Positions 5,794-51,856 of a stretch of 64,000 bases of DNA are shown here, piece by piece. The stretch is taken from the NCBI GenBank assembly GCA_016748015.1, contig JAAOMT010000303.1, positions 744,001 through 808,000 on the forward strand. Reading direction: 5' to 3'. The DNA is from Geosiphon pyriformis uo1 (taxonomy: Eukaryota > Fungi > Glomeromycota). Below the pieces are notes generated by a model that made no database searches, was not told where the DNA came from, and saw only the letters and a list, made by a program, of their open reading frames with translations. Positions within the stretch are counted from its first letter, which is position 1; every line of letters begins with the position of its first letter. A program made the translations under genes and the position numbers.

Positions 5794-6514
5794 ATAAAAA
5801 AAATAAAAAATAAAATAAAAAATAAAAAATTGAGTTAAAAAAATTATTTTAAATTCAGACTTGGAAGTTATTAACAGTTTACCAAAACTAATAACTAATT
5901 AATTTTAAAATATTAATATGGAATAGTTAATTTGAACAGAAATAATTAAAAATTTTATGTTATTTAAAGTAAGTTTTTATTAAGATTAATTTATACAAAA
6001 GATAATTCTAACTAAGATATTTAATAAAAATACTAGACTAAGATATATTTTCTTGAAAAAAAAGCTCTTCTTTTATATAATTTGTTATAATACTATTCTA
6101 TAATTTAATATTATTTTGTTTCTAATTTTTTGGCAAATTAAAAATATATTTTATTAAATTACAAGTTATTTCTGTAAACTATAAATTATTTTAGTAAACT
6201 ATTAAATATTTTATTGAATTATTAAATATTTTAATGAATTTTGAATGTTATATAATTCAATATATTACATAATTTTATTATTACAACTTAGTTATATTTG
6301 TGTTCTGTACAAATTAAATTATTAATTAAATAATAATATAAATAATTTAATATAATAATAAGTAATAAATTAAAATAATAATACAAATAATTTAATATGA
6401 TAATAAGTAATAAATTAAAATAATAATATATACTAATTAATAATAAAAATTATAAAATAATTTCATGCTAAATAATATTTCAAATTTCGGCTGGTAATAT
6501 TAAACAAAAAAAGC

Positions 6515-9010
6515 TAGCAGCCAAGCTGCTACTCAGCATATTCTCGATATTACCAGTGAGTTCTTTCAGCTCAATAACATTGCAATTAACAATGACAAGA
6601 CTGTGGCTATTCCTGTGAATTGTAGAGTTGGGCATCCTTTTTTGCTGATTAATGGTTGGCCTATTTCAATTGCTAAAAAAGAGGAGTCTCATTATTATCT
6701 GGGCATTTTCCTATCCACTGAGGACTTATCAAAACCTAGTTTGGCTAAAGCTCATGTGGATGTTTGACTTTTTGCCAATCTTGTTTCAAAGAAGGCTATT
6801 TTTAATAAACAGTTCTTCTATTTGGTGTTAGCAGTTCTTTTCCCAATTATCAGCTACAGAACTCAATTCAGTTTTGTTCCTGTTAGTATATGTAATAAGT
6901 GGGATACTTTGGTATGCAGAGGGTTGAAGTCCAAATCTGGTCTGCCACAAGATTTTCTCAATAATGTATTACACCATCCCTCATTGTATAGTTTGAAAAC
7001 TTTTGAACAGGTTTAGGCTGAGAGCAAGTCTGCTTCTGTTATTTGCTTCTTGAATGCTGTTGGTATTTTGGGCTGTCTCTTCATGCATCGGTCACATGAC
7101 CTACAGATTTGTAGCTGGAATCCTTGTCATCTTTTGGTTTTTCTTTCTCATATTAATGTCAATTTTTTAAGTAACTTCTTGGCTAGTGTGGTCCATATTT
7201 TTTTGGGGTATAATTTGTTTTTGGAAGGTTTTTTAACCAATACTTTTTGCTTTCAGAGTGGTACCTTCTTGTCTTTTGTTTTTAGTGGTCTTATTTATTT
7301 CAGGTGTGTTTCTTTACTTCGGAAGTATGGAGTTGCTTTCATTGAACAGCTTTGCAATTAAGCTGGAGCTGTTTTTGATTGAAAAACTTTCAAACAGTAA
7401 GAAAGACTGGACCCACAGGGCCTAATTTCTTTTTGGTTTAAGCATTCGGTTGAGTTTCTTAATGGTATCTCTTCTGCTTCTGTTTGTTTTTCTCCTTCCT
7501 TGGATGTTGGTTTTTTGGACATGCTCGAGTCTCAAGAGTTTGGTGTTATTTGTGACCATTTGTTGGGTATTGATGTCAACCAGTTTGCTGTATACACAGA
7601 TAACTCTCTTTGCAATCTAGGAACTTTTGACATAAAGGCTGATGCAGCAGTTTTTTTTGAAGATATTGGTTTGGGTTTGGGCATTGAGGTTTCTGGCTTG
7701 GTATCTTCTACTATGGCTGAGCTACAGACTGTTACACTGGCTCTTGAGTGTGTTCTTTTTTCTAGTTTGGTTAGCATTTTTATAGACAGTCAGTCAGCTT
7801 TCAATACTTGTAGGTTGGAATTGGATTTGTTGTATCCTGATTTCCAAAATTGTTGTTGGATTGAACAGCATCATATTATGGGTGTTATTCATAAGAAAAA
7901 TCTGGATGTCAGTTAGTACAAAGTAAAGGATCATTCTGGTGTTTCAGGCAATGAGCATGCTGATGTTCTCACTAAGACTGCTTTTTTTTCAGTTCGACAT
8001 CTTTCCCATCAGATAAAAGAGTGTTATGTTAAGACTGATGATAGCACTATCTCAGCAAATATTAGACACTTTGTTCATGATATTTTTTGTTCGGTCTACC
8101 ACATGTGCTGGGAGGTGGGCTCTGGTTCTAAAGTGGTGGCATCCAATTTGTAAAATGATATTAATTGGTTTCGATCATCTCTTGTGTGGCATCCTAACTC
8201 CCATTTAGTGACTGGTTTCACTAGTAAATTTACTGCTGGCACCTGTACGTATTTTATGAAGGCATTACATCATCACCTTCCTGTTGCTGTTCGCAAGTGC
8301 TTGTATAGCAGGCATTATCCTGAAGTGGTGTGTTTATTCTGCAGTAATGTCGAGGTTTCTGATCATGTTTTTTGTTGTTTGTTTGATTCTGCTGCTTGTG
8401 CATAATTGCTGGATACTTTTGCAGTTGATTGGATGGAGCTTTTTGGTCTTCTGCTTTTATCTTCTTGTGTATTGCAGCTACTGTCGTCATGTGTATTTAA
8501 CTTAGATGTATGTATGGCTTTGTGCAAAGGTTTTGTCTTCAATAGTTGGCTTCAGAAGTCTCTGTTAGTTTTCAAGGATTCTAAGATCATGACCCAAACA
8601 ATTGTGAATTTTTTGCATGGTTTTTGTTTTGCTTTCCGGAATAAAATTTGGTTGGTTCATGTTAGACACTGGGCATTTATGGAGAAAAATAGTCTGATCT
8701 CTTTAGATGAGTCTATTTTAGCTTTGATTGTTGGGCTTTCTTCGACACTTTCTGCTGGTGTGGTCAATTTGATGGGTATTGCTGATGCTTTAGGAGTTGG
8801 TTTTGGGTTATGTAAACCTTTCAGTTTTTTTTCAGGTTTGAAGAACATGGTAGCGATACATTTAGGTGCATAGTGTTGTCCTGACTAGCCTGAGTGGCTG
8901 GTCACATATAGGAAGTACATGATTTATGCTTAGTTTAAATCACTTATTAATATATTTTACTAGGTTGTGTTTGAACCTCACTTATTAAATGAATAAAATA
9001 AAAAATAAAA
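6515..9010 (+). mobile_element. LINE copy 1, 5'-truncated (RT C-terminus, RNase H, Cys/His knuckle, 3'UTR, poly-A)
   Basis: In-frame fragments: RNase H (YTDNSL, ELQTVTLAL, IDSQSA) and CLFCSNVEVSDHVFC. Stop at 8873, then the conserved 3'UTR and an A-rich tail. Probable TSD AAAAAAAGC at 6506-6514 and 9011-9019. Confidence 0.92.
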
Positions 9011-10440: not shown

Positions 10441-11084
10441 ATGTAATATATATTTGTTTTTTAATAATATACTTTAAAAATATAGATTAAATTAGTATTT
10501 ATATGAAAATATAATTGTAATTATAAGATTACAAATATTTTAAAAAATATAGCTGTTATATTTAAAGATCTATAGTTTTTTTAAACTTATTAACTTAATT
10601 AAAAATAAACAAAATTATTTATTTTGTTAATTATTTCTAAATATTCAATTTTATTAATTTTTAATTACTTTTTAATATTTATATAATTAATTAACAATTA
10701 ATATATAAGTATAAAAATTTAAATTTTTTATTATATAATAGATCTATTATATAATAAGTTAATAAGTTTATCTGTTTTTGTATTTACAAAGTTTAAAGAT
10801 TAAGAATTAAATAAAAAATATGTATAATAATTTTATGTAATTGGCAATATAATAAGTAGAATAAATTTTTTAGTTTAAAAGCTAATTATTTTAAAAGTAT
10901 ATATTAGATTAGTATTTGTATAAAAATATAATTGTAATTATAAAATTATAAATATTTAAAAAAATATAGTTTTTTTAAACATATTAATTTAATTAAAAAT
11001 ATATAAAACTATTTATTCTGTTAATTAAACCAAATTAATTTTTATTAATATAATTTTTATTTTATTTTACAAAATAAATATAAA

Positions 11085-14004
11085 GTTTGGTGATTGAGAA
11101 TGCCCTTGAGAAAAATAGGAAGTTGTGGTTGGTCTTGCAAGATATGCAGAAAGCTTATGATTCAGTTGGTTGGCATCATTTGAGGGCTAGTTTGCAGCGT
11201 GTCAAGATGTGTAAGAGATTCATAAAGTTTTTTGGTGGTATTCATGAGGATAGAGTTAACAGGGTGATGACTGACTTTGGTTTGTCTGATGGTTATAAAG
11301 TGCATAATGGGCTGGATCAGGGTGAGGTCTTTTCACCACTTCTGTGGAAAATTTTTTATGATCCACTTTTGTGTAAGGTCAAGAGGCATGAACATTTGTG
11401 TGAATACCGGATTAATACTAAGTTTGTTTTGAAAACTGGCAGGATTGAGAGTGATGGTGGTTTGACTTCATATTTTTCAGCTGGTGCATTTGTTGATGAT
11501 ACGATCTGGGTTGGGAATTGTCAGGCTTCCACTCAATATGCTTTGAACATTGCCAGTGAATTTTTTGTGATCAATAATATTTCTATCAACAGCGAGAAAA
11601 CAGTTGCTATTCCTATCAATCAGGGTATTAAAATGGCTTCATTAAGCATTTGCGGTCAGCCAATTTCTATTGCTAGGAAAGGTGAAACACATTGGTATTT
11701 GGATATCTTTTTGTCAACTGAAAGGCTCTCCAAGCTGAGTGTTGCCAAGACTCATGCGGATGTATGTTTCTTCGTCAATGTTGTGTTCAGGAAGGTTATC
11801 ACAGATAAACAATTCTCCTATCTGGTTTTGGCTGTTTTGCAGCCTATTGTCAGCTATCGTATTCAGTTCAGTTTTGTCTTTTTTAATGTCTGTCACAAGT
11901 GGGATGTCTTGGTTAAAAAAGGTCTCAGATCTAAGGCTTGTCTTTCCCATGATTTTCCTGATGCTGCTTTGCATTATCCCTCATTATATGGCCTAAAGTC
12001 TTTTAAGCAGATGCAGTCAAAAGGGAAGATTGCTGCTTTGATAATGTTCTCTAATACCCCTGGTATTCTTGGACGTTTGTTTTGTCATAGGTTTTTAGAT
12101 CTACAGGTTCTTGGTTGGACTTTTTTGAATCTGTTGCAGTTTCTGGTTAAGTTGCATGTTAATCCAGTGAACAATTTTTTGGCTGGGATGGTGAAGATTT
12201 TTTTGGGCAATGAGCTGTCTTTGGTAAACAACCTCCCTACTGTATTTTGTAGTCCTGGTCATTTTCCGTTGTTCTCTATTCTTGGAAAGTCTCTGTATTT
12301 TGATTCAGTCAAATCTCTTAAACGCTTTGGTGTTACTTTTGGTGATCGGCTTTTTGATAAGAAAGATGTCTTGTTGGATTGGAAAACTTTTCGTCGTTGG
12401 AAGAGATTGGATCCACATGGTCCTGTGCCTCTTTGGTTCATGGTTTTTTCTGAATTTTTGAAGGATTAGAGTTATCCATTTTCTGGTCCTGTTAGCTCTA
12501 CAGAGAAGCTTGGTTTGGACATTTTGGGGTCTGGAGAATTTTCTGCAGTGAAAGATGGTTTGCATAACATTTGGTCGGGCTCTTTTGAAGTTTTTACAGA
12601 TGGGTCTTTAAGGAATGCAGGCTCTGCTAAGGTTACCTGTAGTACTGCTGCATACTTCCTGGTCTTGGATAAAAGCATTGGTGTCACTGTTCATGGTCTT
12701 TTGTCATCTACTATAGCCGAATTACAGGCTGTTGCTTTGTCTCTGAAGTGTGTTTCTTCTTCAAGTACTGTGGTGTTGTATCTTGACAGTCAAGTTGCTA
12801 TTGATGCATGTGTGTCTGAGATGTCTTTGGCTACCCCCGATTTCCATAACCAATGCTGGCTGGAGAGGCGGCATATTTTTAATTTGGTCAGGGATAAAGA
12901 TTTTAGTGTGAGTTGGGTTAAGGTGAAGGGTCACTCTGGAATTCCTGGAAATGTGGAAGCTGACTTGGCAGCTGGGGCTGCCTCTGGATCCCTCTTTTTT
13001 CTTTTTGCCAATGTGCATGAACATTTTTTGGTTGCTAAGGGTGTCACTGTTTCTGGCAATGTCTGTTATTTTGTCAGGGATATTTTTTGGTCTGTTTGTT
13101 GTGCTTGTTGAGAAGCTGGTCCTAGTTGTGATGTGGTTCCGGACGCGATAATTGGTTGCATAGACTGGGTTGTCACTGCAAAAGTGTGGCATCCTGATTC
13201 TCATATGCTTGCTGGGTTCACTAGTCATAAGTTTTCAATGCTCCACACTTATCTTATAAAGACTGTACACAAGAGATTGCTGGTGGTAGTGCAAAAAAGA
13301 TTGTATGATAAGTGCTACCCTAGTGTGTTGTGTTTATTGTGTAGTGGGGTGGAGTTCTCTGACCATGCTTTTACTTGTGTTCATAAGACTGGCATTTGTG
13401 GTGAGATCTTGGCTGAGGCTTCTGCCCATTAGTCAGCTTTGGCTGGTGGTTCCCTTACTTCCGCTGTGTTGCGAGTTTTGTTTCAATGTTCCATTAATGT
13501 CGAGTTGTATTCTTTAGTTTGCAAAGAGTTTGTGCTAAGAGAATGGTTTGAGGAGGCTTGCAGTGTTTTCGAGGATAGAAAAGTGGCTGCTGCTCAAATT
13601 GTTGATTATGTCAGGTTTGTTGTTGGGTTATATTGTACTAAGGTGTAGTTGGTTAAGTCTAGTCTCCAGGTGGTTATGAAAAAGACTGGTCTGGTTTGTG
13701 ATAGTGGTGTTGTTTTTGGACTCTCTCGTGAAGTGCTTTCAGTTTTGTTTGATGGTATTGTAAGATTGCTTGGTGTGGCCAATTTTTTTGCTGTTAGCTT
13801 TGGTCATCGGAAGCCATTTTGTTTTTTTTCTGATCTGGGTGGCAGTATATGAGTTAATATAAATGTGTAGTGTAGTCTTATCTGGTCTGAGTGGTTAGCC
13901 ATATGTAGAGAGTGTGTGAGTCGCATTTAGTTTGAGCCTCTTAATTTGGCTCTATGTACTAGATAGTGATTGGGCTACACTTGTTAAATGCATTAATAAA
14001 AAAA
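11085..14004 (+). mobile_element. LINE copy 2, 5'-truncated (RT, RNase H, knuckle, 3'UTR, poly-A)
   Basis: ORF 11087-12469 has the RT motifs LQDMQKAYDSV, GLDQGEVFSP and AFVDD. ORF 12515-13111 has RNase H (FTDGSL, LDSQ, KVKGHSGIPGNVEADLAA). Conserved 3'UTR and A tail at ~14000. Confidence 0.95.
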
Positions 14005-16782: not shown

Positions 16783-17652
16783 TGTTACAAGTGACTATTT
16801 CTGGTGTTGGATTAAATAACAAACTCATAACTTGATGCTCAAATCTAGTTGCAGTTGATAGTAATCTGAAGGTTTGTGTCTGAAAGGTCTGTATTCAAAA
16901 GGTTTGGTTGAGTTCTTTGTATAATGGACAGAGATTCAATGGTAATAGTTTTATCTATAGCTTCCTGAAATCGCAGTTTTATCAATTTTTTTCTCAGCTT
17001 AATGGCCGGTATTTCTTCTGGTAAGCTATCCTCAATCGAGTGTTCTACCCTTATTTCTGAGTCTTTTACCAGTCACATTTATTCTGATGTCAGTACCCTG
17101 CATGTTAATCCTCAATAGAGTTAGTAAACAACAATAAAATCAAAGCAAGAAATAAAAAAAAAAAAGAAAATAAAGAAAGAAAAGAAATAAGCCAAGGTGA
17201 TTTGCAAGTTAATATTTCATCAATAACCATAATCAAGAGCTATTGTTCCAATGTAGTTAAGTATCAATTACTATCAACATAAAGTGTTGATAGTGGCAGC
17301 AGGTTTGAGATAACAAACAGTTATTTATTTGTGGTTTGGAAAGTTGTCTAGATGAAATCTAAACTGAGAGGTCTGTCTTTTTAATTTCTAATCCTACTAT
17401 TATATATACATAATTAAGATTTCTCAATTTCTCAATTCTTCACAACAGGAATCCTGGGATTTTTGGAATCCTGCAATTCCTTTGAGAAGAATCCTGGAAT
17501 TTTGGAATCCTGCGATTTCTTGTAAGAATTCTGTAATTCCTGAAATTCTGCAATTCCTGAGAGGAATCCTAGAATTCCACATTTTACTATGTCTACTTTT
17601 GATTGGTTAATAACTATGCTAATATATATTCCCTATATTTCTATGAGTAACA
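16783..17652 (-). repeat. Gypsy-B 3' LTR
   Basis: Direct repeat of 26133-27008 with TG...CA termini; the differences are mostly transitions. Confidence 0.97.
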
Positions 17653-17667
17653 TTATTCCCTCTTTTT
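17653..17667 (-). promoter_or_regulatory. Gypsy-B polypurine tract
   Basis: Minus strand AAAAAGAGGGAATAA immediately before the 3' LTR. Confidence 0.9.
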
Positions 17668-18295
17668 AATATTGAGCTCTGTTGAAATCTAACTCTGTTA
17701 ATTCCCCTTCTTAAAGTATTTCCTGAATTTCATTTTCAAGAATTACTTGTGTTATTTGAGTCTGTAATTCTTCAAATTGAGTGTTGGTGATCTTTCTTAA
17801 TTAATTACTAGTAACTGTATCCATTGCTTTGTTGAGTAAGATTTCTGGTCGATCCTGAAATGCTATATGTATTCAGTATATGGCTTGGGCCTATGTAGAT
17901 AAGTTGTTCTTTTCCACAAAATATTCTAATTGTTGTAGTATTCTTGTGTCAAATAATCACTTTGTTTTATCTGTATATAGATTCTGGATATTCATGTGTT
18001 GTCCCAAGTAAAAATAACAATAGTTTCTTGGAAATTATTGTATCCACCAATTCCAAGTTTCTTTAGTCAACTCTTGGTATAGTGACTCTTTTGTCGACTC
18101 TTTTATTGCTAATTTTACTTTCGCAATGATTTTGTCAATGGTATTTTCTGTTTTCTTCTGTGTTCTATGTGGCAATGTCTTTTTAGTGTCTTGATATCAG
18201 ATGGTTTGTTGATTAATTGTAATTTCTATCTCTTGGTGTTGAATTAATTAAAAGAGTTGTTGTGCTAGTGAGTGGATGTTGTCTGTAATTTCCAT
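17666..18295 (-). pseudogene. Gypsy-B ORF3, ~209-aa protein of unknown function in the env position
   Basis: Single frame from ATG 18295 (or 18325) to TAA 17666, with internal stops of the C>T type. Reads MEITDNIHSLAQQL..FPRNYCYFYLGQHMNIQNLY..DFNRAQY*. Homologous to Gypsy-C ORF3. Confidence 0.8.
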
Positions 18296-18349
18296 TTTTC
18301 TGATATTTTTTGTCACATCTACCATGTCTTTATATATTCTTTTGATGAA

Positions 18350-19732
18350 TTAATTTAACGTGTTGTTGTCAATGATGATGATTGGTTCCAGATCTTGTGG
18401 AATCTCCTCTGGTTGGACTAGTATCTTCTGTACTCCTAATTGTGGAATATTACTGGTGAATGGTAGTGTGATGTTGTGGTATAGTTTCAGTCAATTTCTA
18501 TGTGCTGCTTTGATTAAGATTTTGTTATCCAGTCTTAATTTGTAAGCCCCATTCCCTAGAATTTCTTCTATGTGAAATGGTCCATTCCATTTGGGGTCAA
18601 ATTTTCCACTCCATTGTTTTTCCACTTTGGTATGATGTAAGAGTACTTTGTCTCTAATCTTGAATTCAACTGGTTTGTCTGGTAGTTGATTATTATGTCT
18701 TTTTTTCTGTTTCTCTTGTGACTTTTGTATATTATCAACTGCTCTTCTTTGTTTGTTTTCCAATGTTTCTATTAAGTCATATGTTCTTTTTAACAATGTC
18801 TTTTAGAAATTTTCTTCTGTTATTGGTTCAATTGGATATGTGTTAATCTCTATCTCAACTGGTAATGTTGCTATTCTACCGTATATCAATTCAAATAGTG
18901 TTACTTGTGTGGTGTCTTGCTTCATTGTCCGATAAGCAAATAATACTGATGGTTTAAACAAATTCCATTCGTCCTGGTTTTTTTGGTTGAGTTTTGCTAT
19001 TGCTTTACATAATGTTCTATTAAATCTTTCAACTAATCCATTGGTTTGTGGATGGTATGGTAATGATAGTGGTCTCTTAATTCCGAATCTTTGGCTTAGT
19101 TCTGCTAATGTTCTATTTACAAAATGGGTTTCTTGGTCTGATAATAGTTCTTTTGGACATTCATGTCGACAAATCAGATCTTGATGGACAAATTCGGCAA
19201 TGGATTCTGCATCCGCTCTTTGAATTGCTTTGGCTTCTGGCCATTTAGTAAGATAGTCCATGGCTACTGCGATATATTTGTTGCCTCTGCTAGTAATTGT
19301 CAATGGTCCAACTAAATTGATTCCAATACAGTCAAATGGTCATCTCATTTTAATTGGTCTCAATGGTTTGCTGGGTCTTGTTTCTTCTTTTCTTTAACAA
19401 GCATCACAATTTTGCACATATTGGATGATGTCTGGATATATTAATGGCCAATAGTATTTTTTTCTGGTTTTTTTCATGGTTGCTTCTCTATGAAAATATC
19501 CTGCAGTTGGATCTGAGTGCATGTTGAACAGTATTGTCTCTTTTTCTGGTTTTGTAATTACTCTGGTTGGTTGATCTAAATCTTTTCTATTTTTCCAATA
19601 AAGTATATTTTGGTGAGTAATAAAATATTTGGATTGTTGTTTGATTCTCTTTTGTTCTGGTTGAAATAATTTCTCCTTGAACTGTTGAGTATATATATAA
19701 TGTTGAAGTTGTTAATATTTTTGTGTATTCAT
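18350..19732 (-). pseudogene. Gypsy-B integrase, separate ORF
   Basis: ATG 19732 (MNTQKY) is in frame with the HHCC region, the DDE core (LLSDQETHF, YHPQTNGLVERFN) and the GPF motif (KWNGPFHI). Stop at 18350. Confidence 0.88.
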
Positions 19733-19793: not shown

Positions 19794-22700
19794 TTAGATT
19801 TGTCTCATTCGCAACAAATCATCAGCATTTCCATTGTCTTTTCCTTTTTTATAATGTATGATATAAGTATATGTCGAAAGAGCCATTTTCTATCTTGACT
19901 GTCTTTTGTCTCCAAATTTTTGTTTTTGGAGTGATGTCAATCCTTTGTGATCTGTGTACACCTCAAACTTTTGGCTCAAGTATTCTTTCCATTTCATAAC
20001 TGCCCAATAGATTGCTAGATGTTCTAATTCTGGTGTTCCATAGTTCTTTTTGGCTGGAGTCAAACCTCGGCTGGCATATGTGATTAGATGTTCTCTTCCA
20101 TTCAATCCTCTCTGAGATAGTACTACTCCCAATGCTTGACTTGATCCATCAGTGGTAATAATGAATGGTTTACTATGATCTGGATAGATCAATACTGGGA
20201 CTTGAATAAGCTTTTTTTTCAAGATGTCAAATGCTTCTTGCTGGGTTTCAGTCTATTTGTACTTTGTATTTTTGGTTTGAAGATTATTGAGTGGTTGTGC
20301 TATTTTTGAAAAGTTCTTTATAAAGTATCTATAATAGTTCATGAATCCCAAGAATGATTTCAGCTCAGTTATGTTGGTTGGTATTGGAAAGTTTTTTACT
20401 ATTTCTATTTTTTTCAGATCTGTTTTTATGCCGTCTTTGCTAACTATGTGTTCAAAGAATTTTAGTTTTGTTTTGCCAAAAAAATACTTTGTTGCATTCA
20501 ATTTTAATCCTGCTTGTCATAGTCTTTTGAACACTTGTTGGAGATGACATAGATGATCATCAAATGTTTTTGAGAACACATTGGTGTCATCCAAGTATAC
20601 AACTACTGATTTCCATAATAAGCTGGTATACACAATTTCTATTAGCCATTGAAATGTAGCTGGAGCATTAGTTAAGCCAAATGGCATAACTTCAAACTCA
20701 AAGTTTCCCTCTCTTGTGGTGAACACCATTTTTTCTTTGTTGGCTGGATCCATAGCTACTTGCCAATAACTACTATCCAAGTCTAATGTTGAGAACCATT
20801 TGTTTCTACCGAAAGTGTCAAATAATTTTTGTATCCGTGGAGTTGAATAGCTGTCTTCACGAATTACATCATTGAGTTTCCTGTAGTCTACACAAAATCG
20901 GATTTTTCCATTCTTCTTACAGACAAGTACTACTGGTAACAACCATGGGCTCATTGATGGCTAAATTAATCCATTGTCAAGCATTCAGTTGATCTCTTAA
21001 TGAATGATTTCATGGCTGGCTAGTGGTACCTTATATGCTTGCTGTTTAATTGGCATTGCATCTCCAGTTTTGATCTGATGCTGGATAATATCAGTTCTGC
21101 CAAATTCGTTTTCACTGGTGAAGATGTCATTGAAATTATTGAGTAACATCTTTAGTTGCATCTGTTGAAGTGAGTCTAGATTTCCCATGTTCATCTGTTC
21201 CAATTGTTCTGGCTGTAACAGATAACATTTGTTTTGTCCATAGATGGTTTGTGATGTAATGTCCACATATCTACAAAGCTGTAGAAAATCTGGAATGTTG
21301 CTTGGTGCTTGATCTTCAATTTCTATGGTTAAATATCCGAGAGTGGTTCCTTCTGGTATCTCTACAACATTTCCAGTGTTGTTGTAGATGGAAATTTTGA
21401 TATGGTTATGGCTCTTGGCTGGTATGTGTAGATTGATAAGTCCAATTTCTTCTGATTCACAAAGAGTTGCTTCTGCTTCAAAAATCTGTTCTTTGCTCCT
21501 TCTCTCTCCTTTCTATTGCTAACATGTATTGGCTATATGATGGAATGGAAATTGTTTGACTAGTTGAGATAATTTCTCCTTGGCCAATAATTTCTTCCTC
21601 TACCATATTGACTAGTACATCTATTCTATCCATTGATCCAAATCCCTGTATCTCTCTTGTTGTTATCCTTAATTCTTTTCTATTTTCCACTGAAATTAAT
21701 TAAGCTATTTTCACCAGAGGCAAAAATATTGCCTGTGTTATTCTTTCATTTGGCTCTATAACATAGGCCTTTTCTAAGTCATTTTGTAGCATAGCAATGA
21801 TATTTTCTACATATTCTGCATCAATTATTCCTCCTCTGATGTTTATTCTCTTTTTCACTAAACTACTCCTAGATGCTAATTGAACTATTGTTGTTGCTGA
21901 AATTTCCAGTGCTATTTTCAGATCAATGCAAGTGCACAAATGGGGTTCCAATTTGATGGCATTTTTTTCTGGATATCTTAGATCAAATCCTGCATCAGTA
22001 TTATGTGCACGTTCTGGTATGATATCTTTATCATTATCACTGAACCATTTCAGTTCTTGCTTCTTGGTAAGATTAGAGAGTGCAATATATTGTTCATAGT
22101 TTGAATCAGAGTTTGAATCAGAGTTGGAATCATTGTTATAGCCATTTTGAACAGAGCTGGAATCATTATTTTTGTTATTGTTGTTGTCAGAGTTTGAATT
22201 GGGATTGGAACTCGATTCCAATTCTGATGTGCAGCTGTTGATTGGTTTTTCTTCTTCAGATATTATGTAGATCATGTATGGTGGTGGATTGTAGATAAGA
22301 TCACAATCATCACAGAATTAAAAGTCACATGGAATTAAACAGTGGTTACATAATTGGATGTTGATTTCTTTCAAGCGTTGCTTTTGTTTTTTTCTCGTGG
22401 GTGCTAGATTCTGATAATGTTTATGGAATTCTTCTGGGCTGTTTTTTAAGTCAATAAAGGCATCTGGGTTAAGAACCAAAACAATGTCTATTGGTTCTAG
22501 AGGGTTATTCTTGATCTCCAAAATTTTATTAGGCAAAGTGTCTTCTACTTTGGCATTGGCCATTCGCCAGATCTCATCTTTGTCATGTGGATAGTCATCT
22601 AGATAGGATATAGCTCAGTGCCATACTGTTGTAATGGGCATACCACGACTCATCTAGTTACTAATGAGGATTGTGTATTGGCACAAAGCATCACACATTC

Positions 22701-26113: not shown

Positions 26114-26130
26114 CCTCACAGGGAGCACCA
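26114..26130 (-). promoter_or_regulatory. Gypsy-B primer binding site
   Basis: Minus strand TGGTGCTCCCTGTGAGG, 2 nt after the 5' LTR. Complementary to a tRNA 3' end ...CCUCACAGGGAGCACCA, which resembles elongator Met or Ile(UAU). Confidence 0.88.
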
Positions 26131-26132
26131 AA

Positions 26133-27008
26133 TGTTACAGGTGACTATTTCCGGTGTTGGATTAAATAACAAACCTGTAACTTGGTGCTCAAATCTAGTT
26201 GCAGTTGATAGTAATCTGAAGGTTTGTGTCTAAAAGGTCTGTATCCAAAGAGTTTGGTTGAATTTTTTGTATAATGGACAGAGATTCAATAGTAATAGTT
26301 TTATTTGTAGCTTCCCAAAACCACAGTTTTGTTAATTTTTTTCTTAGCTTGATGGTCAGTATTCCTCCTGGTAAGCTATTCTCAATCAAATATTCTACTC
26401 TTATTTCTGGGTTTTTTACCAGTCACGTTTATCTTGATGTCAGTACCCTGTGCATTAATCCTCAATAGAATTAGTAAACAACAATAAAATCAAAGCAAGA
26501 AATAAAGAAAAGAAAATAAAATAAAATAAAAAAAGAAAAAAAATAAGCCAAGACAATTTGCAAGTTAGTATTCCATCAATAGCTGTGATCAAGAGCTATT
26601 GTTCCAGTATGGTTAAGTATCAATTACTATCAACATAAAGTGTTAATAGTGGCAGCAGATTTGAGATAACAAACAGTTATTTATTTATGGTTTGGAAAGT
26701 TGTCTAGATGAAATCTAAACTGAAAGGTCTGTCTTTTTAGCTTCTAATCCTACTGCTATATATACATAATTGAGATTTCTCAATTCCTCAATTCTTCACA
26801 ACAGGAATTCTGGGATTCCTAGAATCTTGCAATTCCTTTAAGAAGAATCCTGGAATTCTGGAATCCTGTGATTTCTTGTGAGAATCCTGGGATTCTTGGA
26901 ATCCTGCAATTCTTGAGAGGAATCCTGGAATTCCACATTTTACTATGTCTACTTCTGATTGGTTAATAACTATGCTAATATATATTCCCTATATTTCTAT
27001 GAGTAACA
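26133..27008 (-). repeat. Gypsy-B 5' LTR
   Basis: Direct repeat of 16783-17652. Confidence 0.97.
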
Positions 27009-27459
27009 GCATACAAATATTTATGAACAGTAACAAGAAGCTGGTAATGCAAAGCCTTCATAAAATAAGTATGAGTGCCAGTAGTACTTCTACTAATAAA
27101 GCCAAAGACCAAATGCAAATCAGGATGCCACACCAAGGATGACCTAAACCAATTAATGTCTGCATGCAAAAAATCCACCATAATTCAAGAACCAAAGCCA
27201 ACTTCCCAGTATGTCCAATGAACAAACCAAAATATATCACAAACAAAATGTCTAAAATTAGCAAAAACAATGCCACCACCAGTTCTAATATAACACTTAA
27301 CAATATGATAAAGGAAATACCAATTAGAGGAACAAATAGTCTTTGTGAAAATATTAGCACACTTATTGTCTAAAACATCCAAATGACTCTTAATCTTATG
27401 ACAACTGACCTCCAAACACTTTTTACAAATAACACTTATAATATGATGATGCTTAACTC

Positions 27460-27555
27460 ATATTTGTTTAAAAAACTTTAAATTATATAATAAAAATAAT
27501 ATAAAATCTTAGTAAAAAATTTTTTTAGCAAATTGGTTTTAGATCTTAAATTATT
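27460..27555 (-). mobile_element. Ghost LINE, piece 2
   Basis: Minus strand LRSKTNLLKKFFTKILYYFYIYNLKFFKQI matches LRSKACL..DFPDAALH.PSLYGLKSF.Q and continues into piece 1 at 16085. Confidence 0.75.
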
Positions 27556-27702
27556 TTATTTTTTTTTATTATTTTTTTTTATTTGTTTAATGAGTGAGAT
27601 CCAAACACTATCTAGTACAATACATCATACAAGTGATCTAAACCAGACGTGAATCATGCTCTTTCTACACGTGACCAGCCACTCAGACTAGTCAGAACAA
27701 CA

Positions 27703-30700
27703 CTAGGCACCTATATGTACCGAGACCAAGTTACCTATACCTGAAAAGAATAAACTAGATCTACGAAACCCAAAACCAATACCATTTGCATCAGCAATAC
27801 CCAATAATCTAACCATATTGGACGAGAGTACCAAAGAAAGACCAGAAACCGAGACAGGAATAGAGCCATCATGTGAAATCAAGCCACCCTTCTTCATAAC
27901 AGCTCTGTGTTTCACACAAACCAGCCAAATATCATCACGGAATGCAAGACAAAAATCACGCACAAATGCCACAATATTCTGAGCCGCTGTTTTAGAGTCC
28001 TTAAAAACAGAAAAAGATTCATGATACCACTCATTGAAAACAAAGCCCTTACATATAGCCACACCAACAACAGCATTGGAAATGCAAGCAAAAAGAGACT
28101 GCGAAACACATGAAGTCGAGTGAGATAAATCTGAGCGCATTTCCCAAACAGATGCATGAGCATTCATCAATCGGGCACAATCACCAGCATCAAATGGGCA
28201 CAAAAACACATGATCTGAAATTTCAACATCGCCACAGAACAAACACATCACACTGGGGTACCCTTTATCATAAAGATGCTTTCGCACAGCAACAGGAAGA
28301 CGATGATGTAACGCCTTCATAAAATACGTTCGATAACCAGCAGCCAAATGAGAGTCTGGATGCCACACCAAACATGACCTCACCCAATCAACATCAGCAC
28401 GTAGGCTGTCCACCAATACCCGAGAACCAGAACTGACCTCCCAATGTGCACGGTGAATAGAGTGGAAAACATTACAAACAAAATGCCTAGAATTACAAGA
28501 AACCACAGTACTACCAGCCTTGAAAAAATGTTCATCGATCCTGTAAGGAAGATGCACACTAGAAGACGCAGCAGCCCTAGCCAAAGTGTCAGCATGCTCA
28601 TTGCCCAAGACTTCAGAGTGACCTCTAACTTTAATCCAATCAACATCCAAATTTTTGCGACAAATGACATTAGAAATATGGCAGCATTCAACCCAACACT
28701 GATTCCTGAAATCTGGACACCCCAACATTAACTCTGACCTGCATGCATCTAAAGTGGCCTGGCTGTCCAAAAACAGATTAACCGAATGAGAAGGAGGGAC
28801 ACACTTGAGAGCCAAAGCAATGGTCTGCAGCTCCGTCATGGTAGAAGAAACCAAACCAGAAACTTCCACACCTAAACCCAAATCAATGTCCTCAAAAAAA
28901 ACAGCAGCACCAGCCTTCATACCAAAAGTACCCAGCCCACACAAAGAACCATCTGTAAACACAGAAAGGTGATTGGAATCAACCTTCAACAAGCGATTGC
29001 AAACAACATTAAACTCGCAAGACTCAAGTACATTAGACGAGTCAACATTCAGTGACAAAAGAGAACAAACGGGAGATGACCCAGAATCAGACAAAAAGCG
29101 AACAGCAGCATTGAACCAATCAGAAATCGGGCCCCAAGAGTCCAGTCTCTTCCACCGCTTGAAAGTTCTCTATTCAAAAACAGAACCAGTTCAATCACGA
29201 AGCTGCTCAACAAAGACAATTCCATATTGCCAAAGTGAAGAGACACATTTATAAAAAGCTAACTTGCCAAGAACAATAGACATTGGGGTCCCCTTTTGAA
29301 AACGAAAAACATTGGTCACGAGACCACCCAGAGAGAGGTCGCAACCCAAAAAAATCCGGACAACACCAGTCAAAAAATTATTCAAAGGACTAATATTAAT
29401 ATGAAAAGGGAAAAACAGGGGGTGATGAGAGTGCCAGCTGAGAATCTGTAAATCATGAGACTTATGCACGAACAGGCAGCCCAAAATACCCACAGAATTG
29501 ACAAAACAAACAACAGCAGTTGACTTGCTCTCGGCCTGGACCTGTTTAAAAGATTTCAACTCGTACAGAGAAGAATAATGAATAGCATCATTGGGAAAGT
29601 CAAGTGGCAAGCCAGATTTGGACTTCAAACCTTTACGAATAATAGCGTCCCATTTTGCATATACACTAATAGGAACAAAACTAAACTGAGTCCTGTAGGC
29701 AATTATGGGGTGAAGAACCACTGACACTAAATACAAAAACTGCTTATCAGAGATAGTCTTTCTCAAAACAAGGTTGGTGAAAAATCGGACATCCAAGCGT
29801 GCCTTAGCCAAGCTAGGCTTCGACAAACCCTCAGTAGACAGAAAGATACCCAAATACTGATGAGACTCTCCCCTTTTGGCTATCAAAATAGGCAAACCAC
29901 TGATCAACAAATGAGGGCTGGAAACTCTGCAATTAATGAGAATAGCCACCATTTTGTCATTATTGATCAAAATGTTATTGACTCAAAAAAACTCACTAGC
30001 AACATTGAGAATATGTTGGGTGGCAGCCTGGCTGCTACCAATTCAAATTGTATTGTCAACAAAAGTACCAGCAGTGAGGAAAGAAGTCAAACCAGCCTAA
30101 GATTCAATGTGACCAGTGTTGGCAACAAAATGAGAGTCTAACCTGTATCCACATATACTTTTTTGTCTCTTGATTTCACACAAAAGAGGATCATAAAATA
30201 TGCACCAGAGAAGAAAAGAAAACACTTCCTCTTGATCCAAACCATCATGTACCCGATATCTATCAGTCAACCCAAAATCCGTCATAACTCTGTTGACCCG
30301 ATCATTGTGGATGCTACCAAAAAACCGAATGAATTTGTTACACATTTTTATTCTGACCAAGCTCTTCCTTAGATGCTCCCAGCCAACCGAATCATAAGCC
30401 TTTTGCATGTCCTGTAAGACCAGCCACAGCTTTCGGTTCTTCTCCAAAGCATCCTCAATGACCGATCTAATAGCGAAAATAGGAGACTGTGTGGTCGTGC
30501 TTTTTAAAACAGAAAAATTATCCCCCCTCAGAATGTTAAAAACACTACAAGCCGATGAAATTCTGTCCAAAAGCACTTTAGAAAGGATTTTGCGAGCCGT
30601 CTCAACCAAAACAATAGAATGGGTATTCATGAGAACACTCTTCCACTCATATGGTTTGGGGATCATTGACACCCAAGCCTTTTTCCAAGGCCCAGGAACA

Positions 30701-32367
30701 GATTCACACTCCAAGCAAACATTCAAAAGCACTAAAAGCATATCCAAAACTGATTTGTTGCAATGTTTCCATAACTCATTCGAAATACCAGAGAGACCAG
30801 CTGCTTTCCCATCAGGCAGGTTTAAAATGACATTAGACATCTTATCAAAATTAATTAGGCTCATTACACCAGAAAAAGCATCATCAAAAACATACTTTAA
30901 AGGCTGATATTGGCGATTTCAGACACCAGTAACATCAGAAACTACATTGCGCTTCCTAGTCCATTCCTCCATAACTGCATCTATTTTGGCCTTTACCAGA
31001 GCGGGCTCCAAAACCAACTCATCATCAACAACCAGATGATCCAAAGTTACTTTGCGAAAAGGACGTTCCAACACACTCCTAATAGTGTGACCTTTGTCCA
31101 ATTCGAAACTCTCCATCCTTTTATCTATCGCCAATCTGATTTGAGATTCCCTAACTCGCACCGCTTCCGACATTTTGGATGTGCGATAAGACTTTTTGAC
31201 CACAGACAAAACTGACCAAATAGCATTGAAGTGGGAACCTGATAGGAAGAAAGACTTCACTGTAGAAGCATTGACTGAATCCAGCCCTTCCCACCTGTCG
31301 AGCAAGGATGCAAACTCCACAGCAGAATCCATATAAGATGCTCTAACTAACTTAGACACCAAGAGTTCAAGCTTGTGAAATTTGGATGAATCCTTGCTAA
31401 AAATTTTATCATATCCCTTGAACCATTTTTTCTTGAAAACCGCCTTAGCAGACAGACACATCACTTTACAGAGAGCAACTCACATCGAATCCAAGTCCGA
31501 GCAGATCCTGGCTGCAAGAAAATTGCCATGAAACATAGCAGCATTTGCTGCTGTATCTTCCTTAAATTTGGCCCATTTACCATCATCTGCATCTTTGCAA
31601 TCGTACTTCCAGCGATCTCTATTTGCTTGCTTACGAGCAGAATTCAACTGAACATCGAGCAGACCACCCAAACCCACTAGCACTGAGACAGCCTGATAAT
31701 CAGTATCAAAGTATTTCCCAACGCCAAACACGTTGCGACCTATTACTGCATTGACCAGATTTGAAGAAACGAACATAAAATCAATTGTCTTAGCAATGCC
31801 CCGAGAATTGGACCAAGTCGGCGATTTTCCACAGGAGCTCCCACCCAAGGCATTAACCAGACCCAAATCCAGACACTTTTTAAAACTTGCACACTTGTGA
31901 GAACCGTCTTCATTGAAATCACCACTGAGAACAACAAAAGAAGATTCATTAACAGCTTTTGCAATGAGAGAGTTGACTTCACCAGCCTGAGAGAACCAGA
32001 CTGCTGAGGAGGCACCAGCGTACAGACCCAGAATAGACACCAAAAGTTTATTTTTGAAAAGTAACTTAATGGACAAGAGCTGACCAGACACCTCTGATAC
32101 TTTGCACACATGTCTTACTAAAGAAGAGTTTATGACGACTGCAACACCAGCACCCAGATATCCAGATTCCAAACCAGAGGTAAACATCCGCACACTATCA
32201 TATTTATTGACAATCCATGGGCAAATTTTCTCTTTTAACTTTGATTCCGTAAAAATAGAAACTAAATTGTTCTTCTCCATATGCCAATGAATGACATTGT
32301 CCTGTTTCGCAATATTGTTCATACCTCTGACATTGCAAGTAACAATATTCCAAACCAGACTGTCCAT
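27703..32367 (-). pseudogene. LINE copy 5 ORF2 (AP endonuclease, RT, RNase H, Cys/His knuckle)
   Basis: All fragments share one frame and are broken only by stops. APE: TCNVRGMN, FTESKL, GDFNE, TIDFMF. RT: LQDMQKAYDSV. RH: FTDGSL, KVRGHS. Knuckle: CLFCGDVEISDHVFLC. Confidence 0.95.
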
Positions 32368-34154: not shown

Positions 34155-34295
34155 AACAGCAATAACAGAGCCAACAGTGGTCTCGTAATTGAAGAACAGT
34201 TTTGATTTATCATACTGAATGATAAAAAACTTCTTTCGAAAAAACTTTTAATTCTTTTTCGGGAATTTTGGATGAAAGAGAGAAAGAAGTTTTCT

Positions 34296-36201: not shown

Positions 36202-36347
36202 TTATTATATTGAAAAAAAAAATTTTTTTTCTTGTCAATCCCCTGCCTATGACAAGAGCATAGTTTTTGCTGATAGAATAGCTTTTCCTTTTCCTTTTCC
36301 CTTTTTTTACTTCAGTTATTTCTCTTAATACGCCCCTCTTTGTTACC

Positions 36348-41300: not shown

Positions 41301-41983
41301 TGGTGAAAATTTTGTTGGGCAATGAGCTTTCTTTAGTGAACAACCTCCCCACTGTATTTCATAGTCCTGGTCATTTTCCGTTGTCTTCTATTCTTGGAAA
41401 GTCTCTGTATTTTGACTCAGTCAAATCTCTTAGATGCTTTGATGTTGCTTTTGGTGATTGGCTTTTTGATAAAAAAGGTGTTTTGTTGGATTGAAAAACT
41501 TTTTGTCATTGGAAGAGACTGGATCCACATGGCCCTGTGCCTTATTGGTTCTTGGTTTCTTCTGAGTTTTTGAGGAGTCAAGGTTGTTCATTTTCTGGTT
41601 CTATTGGCTCTGCAAAAAAGCTTGGTTTGGACATTTTGGAGTCTGGGAAATTTTTTGCAGTAAAAGATGGATTGCATGACATTTAGTCCAGCTTTTTTGA
41701 AGTTTTTACAGATGGGTCTTTGAGGAATGCAGGCTCTGCTGAGGTCATTTGTGGTGCTGCTGCATACTTTCCAGTCTTGGATAAGAGCATTGGTATCGCT
41801 GTTAGTGGTCTTTTGTCATCTACTATAGCCAAATTGCAGGCTGTTACTTTGGCTTTGGAGTGTGTTTCTTCTTCAAGTACTGTGGTGTTACGTCTTGACA
41901 GCCAGGCTGCTATTGACGCATGTGTGTTTGAGATGTCTTTGGTTGCCCCTGATTTCTGTAATCAATGCTGGCTGGAGAGGTGT

Positions 41984-43022
41984 TGTTACGGTTTAAGAAT
42001 TTAGCAAAAAGAATCATAAAAATAATACAAACTATTCAATCATAATATAGCACAGTAATAATCTTAGAAAGGTAATGATTAACATAGTAGCAAACACCAT
42101 CTCGCGATAGTGGCAAGCACCAGTTCACAATAGCAGCCAACACCAACTGGTGATAGCAGCAAACACCAGGTTGAAATATCAAAAANNNNNNNNNNNNNNN
42201 NNNNNAAATCACAGTTAATAGCTCCAAAATAACATACATAAAAAGAACAATAGAAAATCCAAAAACAAGAAAAGAACATAATTTCGAACCATATAATATT
42301 AGCAAAGTTATTGAAAAATTAGAGATAGCATTGGGCAATACATTAATAATGGAAGAAATAGAAATAAGTGAATTAACACCAGACACATTTAGCAACTTGA
42401 AAACGAAATTTCCAATTAATTACTGTTATTATCAACTAGAAAAGCACTTGAACATACAAACATTATACTCAAAAGACTCAACTAGAGTGTTTAACAAAAC
42501 AACTATCCAACTATTAGAACCTTTCATTGGAAAAACCAACACTACATTCCATTCAAAAACAGTTTACAGAATTTTCAAAGCATTTGAAAACTGTCACAAA
42601 TTNNNNNNNNNNNNNNNNNNNNATCATTCATCAACTGAATCCCTTGGAAGAATAATCCTTGATCAAGATTATTCACGTTGTTACTAATTGATAAAAGCTT
42701 TATTGTGAGAATTAGAAAAGCGCTAAAGACCATTAACATTCTGTGTTTCTAGATTAGAGAAACACATCAGGCAATTGCAAGAATAGTCTCAGAGAAGACC
42801 CCAGACAGTGGGTAGATTTCAGTTCAGCCTCTGAGAAGGAGTACATAAACACACACAACAATTAAGAATTAAAGAATAACTTACATCACAACAGTAAAAA
42901 GAAAGCCTTCAGTGTAACAGTGACATTATTACACAAATAGAATTGAGGAACTCATGAAAGATTGATTGCAATTAAAGCGGGATATCAGCAATTAAATATA
43001 ACAAAAAAACCATCCCATAACA
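41984..43022 (+). repeat. Gypsy-C 5' LTR (two N gaps and a misplaced internal segment)
   Basis: Both ends match 50486 onward and ..51856. Confidence 0.88.
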
Positions 43023-43024
43023 TT

Positions 43025-43038
43025 TGGTGAACCCTACG
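43025..43038 (+). promoter_or_regulatory. Gypsy-C primer binding site (tRNA-Trp-like)
   Basis: TGGTGAACCCTACG, 2 nt after the LTR; resembles the complement of eukaryotic tRNA-Trp 3' ends. Confidence 0.8.
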
Positions 43039-43104
43039 AAGAAAGAAAATCAAAAAGGAAATAATAATTAGCAATAATTCATTCCTAAAAAGGAAAAGAC
43101 AAAA

Positions 43105-48813: not shown

Positions 48814-48842
48814 AAATCACCAACCCACCCGCCACAACAACA

Positions 48843-50306: not shown

Positions 50307-50472
50307 ATGATACTTATTTCAAAAAACATCAACAATATAACTCAACAATTAGTTGAAAGCTTANNNNNNNNNNNNNNNNNNNNAACAAATTAATAACACA
50401 GTATTGAACCACTATAGTAACTTAGAATTTAATGAAGAAATTAACTTCGATTTCGACGGAGCTCAATCTTGA
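50307..50472 (+). pseudogene. Gypsy-C ORF3 (middle collapsed into a gap; missing parts visible at 51141-51406 and 42206-42602)
   Basis: MILISKNINNITQQL.. / ..FPINYCYYQLEKHLNIQTLY.. / ..FDFDGAQS*. Homologous to Gypsy-B ORF3. Confidence 0.75.
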
Positions 50473-50485: not shown

Positions 50486-51856
50486 TGTTACGGTTTAAGA
50501 ATTTAGCAAAAAGAATCATAAAAATAATACAAACTATTCAATCATAATATAGCACAGTAATAATCTTAGAAAGGTAATGATTAACATAGTAGCAAACACC
50601 ATCTCGCAATAGTGGCAAGCACCAGTTCACAATAGCAGTCAACACCAACTGGTAATAGCAGCAAACACCAGGTTGAATATCAAAAAGAAAGTATTTTCTC
50701 ATAGAACTACAAACATATATATATACAGTAGTTTTAATATTGGGAAATAATCAATCAAGTAATAAAAATCATAACTTATCAAGCAACAGATCCAATTTTA
50801 TCCAACAAACTCCACTTTAAATCATACTTTCAANNNNNNNNNNNNNNNNNNNNGAAATGGAGCATACAAGCTAAGACTAGATGATAAAATATTAAGAAAA
50901 GCAGCACATGGTAACTGGCTGAAATTCTATTACAGTAAACCAGTAATAACAACAAAAACACCCAGAATTGGAACACAATTACCTTTAATTCTACCAGAAC
51001 AAATTCCACAAGATTTAGAACCAATAGTTTTAATTGAACATTATTTGAAAAAATAATTAATCTTAGATCACAGCAAAAATGATTTAACAACCATAAAAAC
51101 GCATGCAAAAGATTCCAAAATAACAGTCAAAATTAAAACAATGATACTTATTTCAAAAAACATCAACAATATAACTCAACAATTAGTTGAAAGCTTACAA
51201 CAATTAAAATCTGATCTAGAAATCACAGTTAATAGCTCCAAAATAACATACATAAAAAGAACAATAGAAAATCCAAAAACAAGAAAAGAACATAATTTCG
51301 AACCATATAATATTAGCAAAGTTATTGAAAAATTAGAGATAGCATTGGGCAATACATTAATAATGGAAGAAATAGAAATAAGTGAATTAACACCAGACAC
51401 ATTTAGNNNNNNNNNNNNNNNNNNNNACTTACTTGTATTATTTATTGAATGAAACTATTATTCATCAACTGAATCCCTTGGAAGAATAATCCTTGATCAA
51501 GATTATTCACGTTGTTACTAATTGATAAAAGCTTTATTGTGAGAATTAGAAAAGCACTAAAGACCATTAACATTCTGTGTTTCTAGATTAGAGAAACACA
51601 TCAGGCAATTGCAAGGATAGCCTCAGAGAAGACCCCAGACAGTGGGTAGATTTCAGTTCAGCCTCTGAGAAGGAGTACATAAACACACACAACAATCAAG
51701 AATTAAAGAATAACTTACATCGCAACAGTAAAAAAAAAGCCTTCAGTGTAACAGTGACATTATCACACAAATAAAATTGAGGAACTCATGAAAGACTGAT
51801 TGCAATTAAAGCGGGATATCAGCAATTAAATATAACAAGAAAACCATCCCGTAACA
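50486..51856 (+). repeat. Gypsy-C 3' LTR (N gaps, misplaced internal segment)
   Basis: Matches the ends of 41984-43022. Confidence 0.88.

What the first reader, a model, noticed from the sequence alone, without database searches (positions are those of the whole stretch)
17666..18325. Conserved orphan ORF3 in the env position, ending at the polypurine tract
Seen: Gypsy-B has a ~209-codon frame without frameshifts between IN and the PPT; the ORF track misses it because of C>T-type stops. Gypsy-C has a clear homologue. B ELTKETWNWWIQ*FPRNYCYFYLGQHMNIQNLYTDKTK*LFDTRILQQLEYFVEKNN..IY*IHIAFQD aligns with C ELTPDTFSNLKTKFPINYCYYQLEKHLNIQTLYSKDSTRVFNKTTIQLLEPFIGKTN..VYRIFKAFEN. Both end DF(N/D)(R/G)AQ(Y/S)* with the stop overlapping the PPT. 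No signal peptide or transmembrane stretch is visible. Inference: protein-level conservation between families with unrelated LTRs and different PBS implies a functional accessory protein, for example anti-silencing, an IN adaptor or movement in coenocytic hyphae.
Basis: partly seen in the sequence, partly recalled or inferred. Interest (0 to 1): 0.85.

Follow-up and report, generated by a model that had tools for sequence, protein, structure and literature searches.

The report
Accessory gene of mycorrhizal-fungus retrotransposons
A decayed fungal jumping gene carries a real third gene after its integrase; it shows protein-level selection, matches no protein of known function, is likely a distant relative of a small helical protein found at the same place in many related elements, and likely serves as an optional regulator of the element.

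Summary
Confirmed. A 209-codon frame (18295-17666, minus strand, 8 stops) lies between integrase and PPT of a dUTPase-type Ty3/Gypsy element. Its named homologues are Geosiphon pyriformis proteins, including an open 209-aa copy. Families B and C share 35% identity over 218 columns, with pN well below pS. Related elements from metagenomes carry an intact ORF of about 145 aa in the same slot (28 of 46 long loci; dN/dS 0.03-0.20). It is remotely homologous (hhalign E about 1e-4) and has Rhizophagus members. It starts in all three frames relative to integrase, often overlapping the pol stop, so it is a separate gene, not a readthrough. Thirty loci lack it, so it is optional. It folds confidently (pLDDT 91) into eight helices with no PDB or viral match and no membrane segment, so it is not env. 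Function is untested; best guess is a nucleic-acid-binding regulator (about 40%). This scan noted similar small helical ORF3s in other fungal genomes before.

The parts
17666..18295 (-). ORF3 of element B, 209 codons plus stop, 8 internal stops; alternative in-frame ATG at 18325
   Evidence: open natural copy P0012 is 84% identical over the full length
18350..18352 (-). TAA stop of integrase, in frame with ORF3, at the same aligned position as in element C
18353..19612 (-). integrase of B (H2C2 zinc domain, rve core, Tf2-like SH3; no chromodomain hit)
   Evidence: Pfam
17672..17687 (-). conserved nucleotide motif just before the PPT, read as 'F-x-x-A-Q' by the end of ORF3
   Evidence: same kind of motif in ORF3-less relatives
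17653..17665 (-). polypurine tract
   Evidence: sequence
16783..17652 (-). 3' LTR of B (TG...CA), followed by the target-site copy ATGC
26133..27008 (-). 5' LTR of B, 89.5% identical to the 3' LTR, preceded by ATGC
26114..26130 (-). primer binding site of B
   Evidence: sequence
19800..21500 (-). RT and RNase H region of B
   Evidence: 52% identical to the C region that Pfam assigns to RVT_1 and RT_RNaseH
51141..51406 (+). ORF3 of element C, N-terminal piece; starts 87 nt after the first base of the integrase stop (51054-51056; duplicate piece with stop at 50220-50222)
42206..42602 (+). ORF3 of element C, middle piece, lying between two N gaps inside the 5' LTR (likely an assembly misplacement)
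50384..50472 (+). ORF3 of element C, last piece with stop; PPT follows, LTR starts at 50486
   Evidence: continuity shown by natural copy P0123
46588..46977 (+). dUTPase domain in the pol region of C, between protease and RT
   Evidence: Pfam PF00692 E 1.5e-20

Best explanation
This is a decayed copy of a separate, optional third gene of a fungal Ty3/Gypsy retrotransposon, kept under protein-level selection, whose soluble, predicted-helical product is likely made by ribosomes restarting after the pol stop and likely binds the element's own RNA or LTR DNA to regulate its expression. Shown (about 0.9): coding, selected, no membrane segment, located between integrase and PPT. Shown for relatives: own ATG in any frame, often overlapping the pol stop, and absent from a sister group of elements. 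Inferred: homology of the 209-aa Geosiphon type to the 145-aa type (about 0.8); stop-restart translation (about 0.5, against a spliced or internal-promoter RNA); nucleic-acid-binding regulator (about 0.4).
For: Coding and selected: B against C, 117 codons, pN 0.38, pS 0.74, identity at codon positions 1/2/3 = 0.56/0.63/0.46, position 2 against 3 p = 0.012. Natural copies share 35% over 218 columns, E 2e-36. dN/dS is 0.03-0.20 in 7 of 8 pairs of intact relatives, the eighth saturated. Separate gene: frames relative to integrase 9/20/15 among 44 hits; ATG offsets in 40 loci run from -86 to +260 nt, 18 overlap the integrase end, 5 as ATGA, and 34 lie within -86 to +55. Optional: 30 of 120 loci go from integrase stop straight to PPT and LTR. 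Same family: hhalign E 1.4e-4 and 1.9e-4; 7 of 19 Geosiphon-type proteins outscore all 969 controls; B and C integrases sit in a 7-row clade of ORF3 carriers, support 100/99. Regulator: conserved basic residues (R46 95%, R53 96%, K/R77 89%, K/R119 82%) and a net positive core with acidic ends; in L064 and L077 the same slot holds an unrelated ORF with helix-turn-helix-like Pfam hits.
Against: No RNA or protein evidence of expression was obtained. The homology to the 145-aa type is weak: hhalign probability 48-53%, E 0.06 when only B and C sequences are used, and the B-type proteins themselves did not outscore the controls. The Geosiphon protein did not fold (pLDDT 46), so the structure is that of a Rhizophagus relative. 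The helix-turn-helix hits in L064 are below Pfam cut-offs and concern a different protein. ORF3 carriers do not have more CpG (0.74 against 0.68, p 0.15) or more LTR repeats (2.3 against 5.0 per 100 nt). Full-length pI ranges from 5.4 to 9.3. Six of 40 spacers are 97-260 nt, long for a restart. The nearest look-alikes by structure and by language-model features are TPR- or HEAT-like, which leans toward protein binding.
Confidence: 0.42

Rival explanations
1. ORF3 is a helical adaptor that binds integrase, Gag or a host protein, for example for nuclear import or target-site choice, and is made in step with Pol.
For: Position and stop-start overlaps would tie its level to Pol. These integrases show no chromodomain (element B). 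The top structure rows are HEAT- or TPR-like hairpins, Z at most 5.2, and Atlas clusters with 11-30% TPR_12 members score 0.91-0.92.
Against: Those Z values are at background level by the tool's own note. ORF3 identity does not track integrase identity over 45 pairs from 10 loci (rho 0.09, p 0.57), though these pairs are mostly deep and carry little signal.
Confidence: 0.27
2. ORF3 is an env-like, fusogenic or movement protein for spread between nuclei or hyphae.
For: It sits in the env position. Hosts of this group are coenocytic (own knowledge).
Against: No hydrophobic segment: best 19-residue mean hydropathy 0.27 for the open B copy, at most 1.29 in 7 proteins and 1.38 in 80 relatives; 0-3 cysteines. 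The model is a compact helical domain.
Confidence: 0.05
3. ORF3 is a C-terminal extension of Pol made by stop-codon readthrough.
For: In B and C it is in frame with integrase behind one aligned TAA, with stop-free spacers of 54 and 84 nt.
Against: 35 of 44 relatives have it out of frame. Both B and C have their own ATG with A at -3. Two loose-end groups (agreement only 0.65-0.68) suggest B subfamilies whose integrase stop sits two codons earlier, one with two in-frame stops.
Confidence: 0.05
4. ORF3 is a small enzyme or ligand-binding domain of an undescribed fold that acts on nucleotides, RNA or chromatin.
For: Near-invariant polar residues R46, R53, N59, Y88, E100 and H/Y87. Enzymatic ORF3s exist in other LTR elements (PMC5408684, passages).
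Against: No Pfam, NCBIfam, PHROG or PDB family recurs (at most 3 of 80 members); the motif is only partly kept in the Geosiphon type.
Confidence: 0.15
5. The frame is a non-functional relic kept only by descent.
For: This copy is broken, and most annotated copies are partial gene models.
Against: pN well below pS, no frameshift between families whose LTRs are unalignable, and intact selected relatives.
Confidence: 0.02

Closest known systems
Sense additional ORFs between pol and the 3' LTR of plant LTR retrotransposons (aORF-3S; PMC7264820, first third of the text read)
   Same: Same position and orientation, present in many copies, function unknown.
   Different: Fungal host; no transmembrane segment; no family match; often overlaps the pol stop.
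ORF3s of dUTPase-carrying LTR retrotransposons of bdelloid rotifers (PMC5408684, passages)
   Same: dUTPase in pol, optional ORF3 gained and lost between families, different ORFs in the same slot.
   Different: Those ORF3s are env-like, transmembrane, coiled-coil, GDSL or DEDDy; none of these was found here. They are described as typically spliced.
CERV of C. elegans Cer1 (PMC10309623, abstract)
   Same: Model for what it may work like: a retrotransposon-encoded regulator of its own RNA.
   Different: CERV comes from a spliced mRNA; no sequence link was tested or seen.
sORF2 of Drosophila MDG1-group elements (bioRxiv 2025.03.14.642691, abstract)
   Same: Small non-env accessory ORF in a Gypsy element.
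   Different: sORF2 is a short transmembrane fusogen; ORF3 has no membrane segment.
Stop-restart translation in victoriviruses, hypoviruses, SART1 and LINE-1 (review PMC5972666, passages)
   Same: Overlapping or close stop and start codons between two ORFs of one RNA, including fungal viruses.
   Different: Here it would follow a long pol ORF of an LTR element; no upstream signal was identified and nothing was measured.

Membership tests
Ty3/Gypsy LTR retrotransposon (host element) | gag, protease, RT, RNase H, integrase in this order | tested here: met
   Pfam on C and on B integrase; B-C similarity
Ty3/Gypsy LTR retrotransposon (host element) | TG...CA LTRs, primer site, PPT, target-site duplication | tested here: met
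Chromovirus | chromodomain at the integrase C-terminus | tested here: not met
   Pfam on B integrase at E up to 1 gave no chromo family
Sense additional ORF between pol and 3' LTR (aORF-3S) | sense ORF in that slot, conserved in many copies and families | tested here: met
Env or env-like protein | signal peptide and transmembrane segment | tested here: not met
   hydropathy scan, maximum 0.27-1.38; no dedicated signal-peptide predictor was available
Env or env-like protein | fusion-protein fold | tested here: inconclusive
   no match in PDB or BFVD for the relative's model; Geosiphon model unusable
sORF2/FAST-like fusogen | short protein with a transmembrane helix | tested here: not met
pol-ORF3 readthrough fusion (SIRE1 type, recalled) | ORF always in frame behind one leaky stop | tested here: not met
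   in frame in B and C and in 9 of 44 relatives only
Enzymatic ORF3 (GDSL, DEDDy, 2OG-Fe oxygenase) | profile match to the enzyme family | tested here: not met
Helix-turn-helix regulator | HTH profile or fold match | tested here: inconclusive
   not among top rows; one weak AsnC_trans_reg2 hit in 2 of 80 members
Stop-restart (termination-reinitiation) ORF | start codon overlapping or near the upstream stop | tested here: met
   34 of 40 loci within -86 to +55 nt; B +27 or +57, C +87
Stop-restart (termination-reinitiation) ORF | translation depends on termination of the upstream ORF | not testable with these tools
   needs a reporter assay

The most novel reading that the evidence does not exclude
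A lineage of Gypsy retrotransposons of arbuscular-mycorrhizal-type fungi encodes its own regulator: a protein of a new helical fold, made by stop-restart translation after pol, that binds the element's RNA or LTR and helps it evade host silencing. This would be a first self-encoded anti-silencing or transactivating factor of a fungal LTR element and a candidate cause of the LTR expansion that covers 41% of the Geosiphon genome.
Probability: 0.2. Interest if true: 0.8.

Novelty: new variant of a known kind. Interest (0 to 1): 0.52.

Why it matters
It defines an unnamed protein family with a confident model and no structural match, carried as an optional module by a large fungal Gypsy lineage. 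Natural ORF3-plus and ORF3-less sister elements, and an apparent replacement by an HTH-like ORF, make its function testable. It also explains more than a hundred 'hypothetical' Geosiphon gene models as transposon pieces (110 hits), which matters for orphan-gene counts in these fungi. LTR elements cover 41.2% of the G. pyriformis genome (PMC11952901, passage).

Tried and rejected
No whole genome was held, so copy-by-copy dN/dS inside Geosiphon could not be run. No RNA holder was listed. Direct scans with the B/C alignment found no relative in metagenome or viral contigs, nor with the integrase pair in viral contigs; relatives were reached through an integrase DNA pattern instead. AlphaFold of the Geosiphon protein gave pLDDT 46 and its Foldseek search was uninformative. 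The confident model had no Foldseek match at E 0.001 in PDB or BFVD and best Z 5.2 among 48,161 chains and 4.7 in the second look; this does not prove a new fold. An RGS hit (Pfam E 0.037; PDB E 0.3) occurred in 1 of 19 members and was rejected. A recalled likeness to DUF1016_N, DUF3102 or ParB helices did not appear among the 25 listed of 37 Pfam families for 80 members, and a profile test could not be set up. No phage match. No Rfam match in the window or 13 loci. The pre-PPT stem-loop folds in single sequences but RNAalifold found no consensus structure on 7 poorly registered sequences, so covariation is not shown. The integrase-ORF3 complex prediction gave no verdict. The exon shared by C-type gene models after the middle of ORF3 comes from the LTR and was treated as a prediction artefact. 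Tree labels: 8 of the 18 rows labelled 'noORF3' are short contigs of unknown state, so the change counts printed there were not used.

Full report
Observation. Element B lies on the minus strand between LTRs at 27008-26133 and 17652-16783, which are 89.5% identical and flanked by the 4-base duplication ATGC. After the integrase stop (18352-18350) a frame runs from ATG 18295, or 18325, to TAA 17668-17666, directly before the PPT. It has 209 codons, 8 internal stops and no frameshift. Element C holds a homologue, split by assembly gaps into three pieces. The match is 33% over 130 residues, E 6e-16, and scores 183 against at most 67 in 2000 shuffles.

Host and copies. All 110 hits to the B protein and all 5 hits to the C piece are named Geosiphon pyriformis hypothetical proteins, so the host is most likely that fungus. 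P0012 is an open 209-aa B copy. The first 219 residues of P0123 are an open C copy, and the two share 35% identity over 218 columns, E 2e-36. One DNA run laid 5,469 contigs on the 711-base stretch. At 5 of the 8 stops, 88-94% of summed depth reads a sense base; the three TGA stops gave no row at the 50% threshold. Open protein copies carry mostly R, Q or W at those three places, as decayed CpG codons would give (inference). The integrase stop and final stop also gave no row, but they lie near the ends of the stretch, so that is weak.

Selection. Over 117 aligned codons B and C differ by pN 0.38 and pS 0.74; dS is near saturation. Identity at codon positions 1, 2 and 3 is 0.56, 0.63 and 0.46 (position 2 against 3, 39 to 19, p 0.012). 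Protein identity is 37%, against 49% for the capsid region and 65% for integrase. The LTRs are unalignable (all). So the frame was coding and selected, and it evolves faster than gag.

Wider family. A profile of 11 B and C sequences found 96 proteins among 1.84 billion representatives. These include at least two more Geosiphon families and two full-length unnamed environmental proteins, P0164 and P0177 (names checked for 10 of the 96, 8 were Geosiphon). One hit, P0197, is a repeat protein and was ignored. Most have integrases 35-50% identical to B; a few look like a different lineage. Of 46 loci with at least 600 bases downstream, 28 carry an ORF of about 145 residues right after integrase (22 loci were in the profile's training set). 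A search with this family gave 77 proteins, three named Rhizophagus irregularis; I did not see their genomic context. Seven of 8 pairs of intact ORFs give dN/dS 0.03-0.20, the eighth is saturated.

Link between the two types. Profile comparison aligns the C-terminal two thirds of the Geosiphon type with the 145-aa type at E 1.9e-4 and 1.4e-4, probability 48-53%. With B and C alone the E-value is 0.06. The 145-aa profile ranks 7 of 19 Geosiphon-type proteins, including both full C copies, above all 969 shuffled or reversed controls; the B-type proteins were not among them. In the reverse test 23 of 80 exceed the 99th percentile of controls. In a 41-row integrase tree B and C fall in a 7-row clade of ORF3 carriers with support 100/99. 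Same slot, same clade and weak profile similarity make homology likely, about 0.8, but not proven.

Separate and optional gene. In B and C the ORF is in frame with integrase behind one aligned TAA, which first suggested readthrough. Across relatives the frames are 9, 20 and 15 of 44. In 40 loci the ATG lies -86 to +260 bases from the integrase stop; 18 overlap, 5 as ATGA and 3 at -5, and 6 are beyond +55 (several loci are near-copies). That pattern resembles the stop-restart junctions of fungal viruses and of SART1 (PMC5972666, passages). A spliced or internally started RNA remains open, above all for the long spacers. Thirty of 120 loci go from the integrase stop to PPT and LTR within 110 bases. 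Nine such rows form one clade, 100/99, and L040 lies apart. The tree is only midpoint-rooted, so loss rather than gain is an inference.

Correction on the C-terminal motif. The shared end 'F-x-x-A-Q' reads a nucleotide motif just before the PPT. A strict pattern for it matches B, C, 18 of 22 ORF3 carriers and 18 of 30 ORF3-less loci. It lies after the ORF3 stop in L009 and is read by the end of integrase itself in L026. Single sequences fold it into a stem with a purine loop, most clearly in ORF3-less elements; an alignment-level fold did not confirm this. It is therefore likely a cis element and no evidence for protein conservation.

Structure. The Geosiphon protein did not fold (pLDDT 46). 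The Rhizophagus relative P0216, with 80 aligned sequences, gave pLDDT 91 and pTM 0.85: eight helices over residues 3-137. Foldseek found nothing at E 0.001 in PDB or BFVD, and the best of 48,161 chains scored Z 5.2, rmsd 4.7 over 83 residues, below the usual background. No Pfam, PHROG or NCBIfam family recurs in more than 3 of 80 members. The Atlas returned unnamed clusters (26 of 30 hits, up to 0.94) and clusters with a minority of TPR members. No segment is hydrophobic enough for a membrane (the usual threshold of about 1.6 is recalled).

Mechanism. Conserved positions are rich in arginine, the core is net positive and the ends acidic. In L064 and L077 the same slot, ending at the same motif, holds an unrelated 121-aa ORF with sub-threshold HTH hits, E 9e-4 and 1.5e-3. 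From this I infer a regulator that binds the element's own nucleic acid, about 0.4, working like CERV of Cer1 (PMC10309623, abstract) without being shown to be related. Two indirect tests of anti-silencing or LTR binding were negative: CpG content (34 against 28 loci, p 0.15) and LTR repeat content (18 against 12 loci). Both are confounded by unknown hosts. An adaptor role is the main rival and stays untested.

Literature. Extra ORFs in this slot are a known kind (PMC7264820, first third read; PMC5408684, passages; PMC9289625, search listing only). Seven searches aimed at a fungal or Glomeromycotina case listed no title or abstract describing this family. Passages read in PMC11952901, PMC3248453, PMC13524379 and bioRxiv 2021.03.30.436303 did not mention it. 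The Geosiphon genome paper was not held, and Repbase and supplements were not seen, so prior annotation cannot be excluded. Earlier notes of this scan describe similar small helical ORF3s in other fungal genomes; look-ups by sequence and place found no look-alike, so I cannot say whether they are the same family.

Verdict. A real, selected, optional accessory gene, and likely the Geosiphon branch of an unnamed family with a candidate new helical fold. New variant of a known kind; interest 0.52.

Noticed in passing
L064:1524-1886 (+) and L077:689-1051 (+): A different 121-aa ORF with a helix-turn-helix-like end fills the ORF3 slot; the LTR behind it carries tandem GATGTCAA-type repeats, and a further 116-aa ORF precedes gag.
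   Followed up: partly
window 17672-17687 (-), 50450-50466 (+), and most loci with a visible PPT: Conserved motif just before the PPT, predicted as a stem with a purine loop and differing stems between families; no Rfam match.
   Followed up: partly
window 46588-46977 (+) and about 21650-22050 (-): Both elements carry a dUTPase-like domain between protease and RT, behind a cysteine-rich insert of unknown kind.
   Followed up: partly
window 41984-51856: Element C is scrambled by 20-N gaps and duplicated pieces; ORF3 pieces sit inside the 5' LTR and after the start of the 3' LTR, which can mimic an ORF within the LTR.
   Followed up: yes
window 17470-17580 and 26830-26935: The LTR of B contains about five copies of a short repeat (AGGATTC core) near its 5' end.
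   Followed up: no
window 6500-9000, 11000-14000, 27000-34200, 36300-41980, 51860-53000: Several non-LTR retrotransposon copies with RT and RNase H-like frames; both Gypsy elements appear inserted into such copies.
   Followed up: no
L012, L035, L036, L064, L072, L077 (downstream gag): Gag in this clade starts with a His...His...Cys-x2-Cys motif followed by an F-W-x-W-like motif, without a Pfam match in the one case scanned.
   Followed up: no
window 57100-57550, 60500-61800, 62200-63100, 63300-63800: Host gene exons: a Rab-type GTPase, a protein kinase, a short-chain dehydrogenase-like and a small heat-shock-like frame, named from recalled motifs.
   Followed up: no
first 100 bases of LTRs in L010, L012, L014, L020, L025, L028, L067, L072: A CTGCG(C/T)C motif recurs, in either orientation, in ORF3-plus and ORF3-less elements, a possible host factor site.
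   Followed up: no
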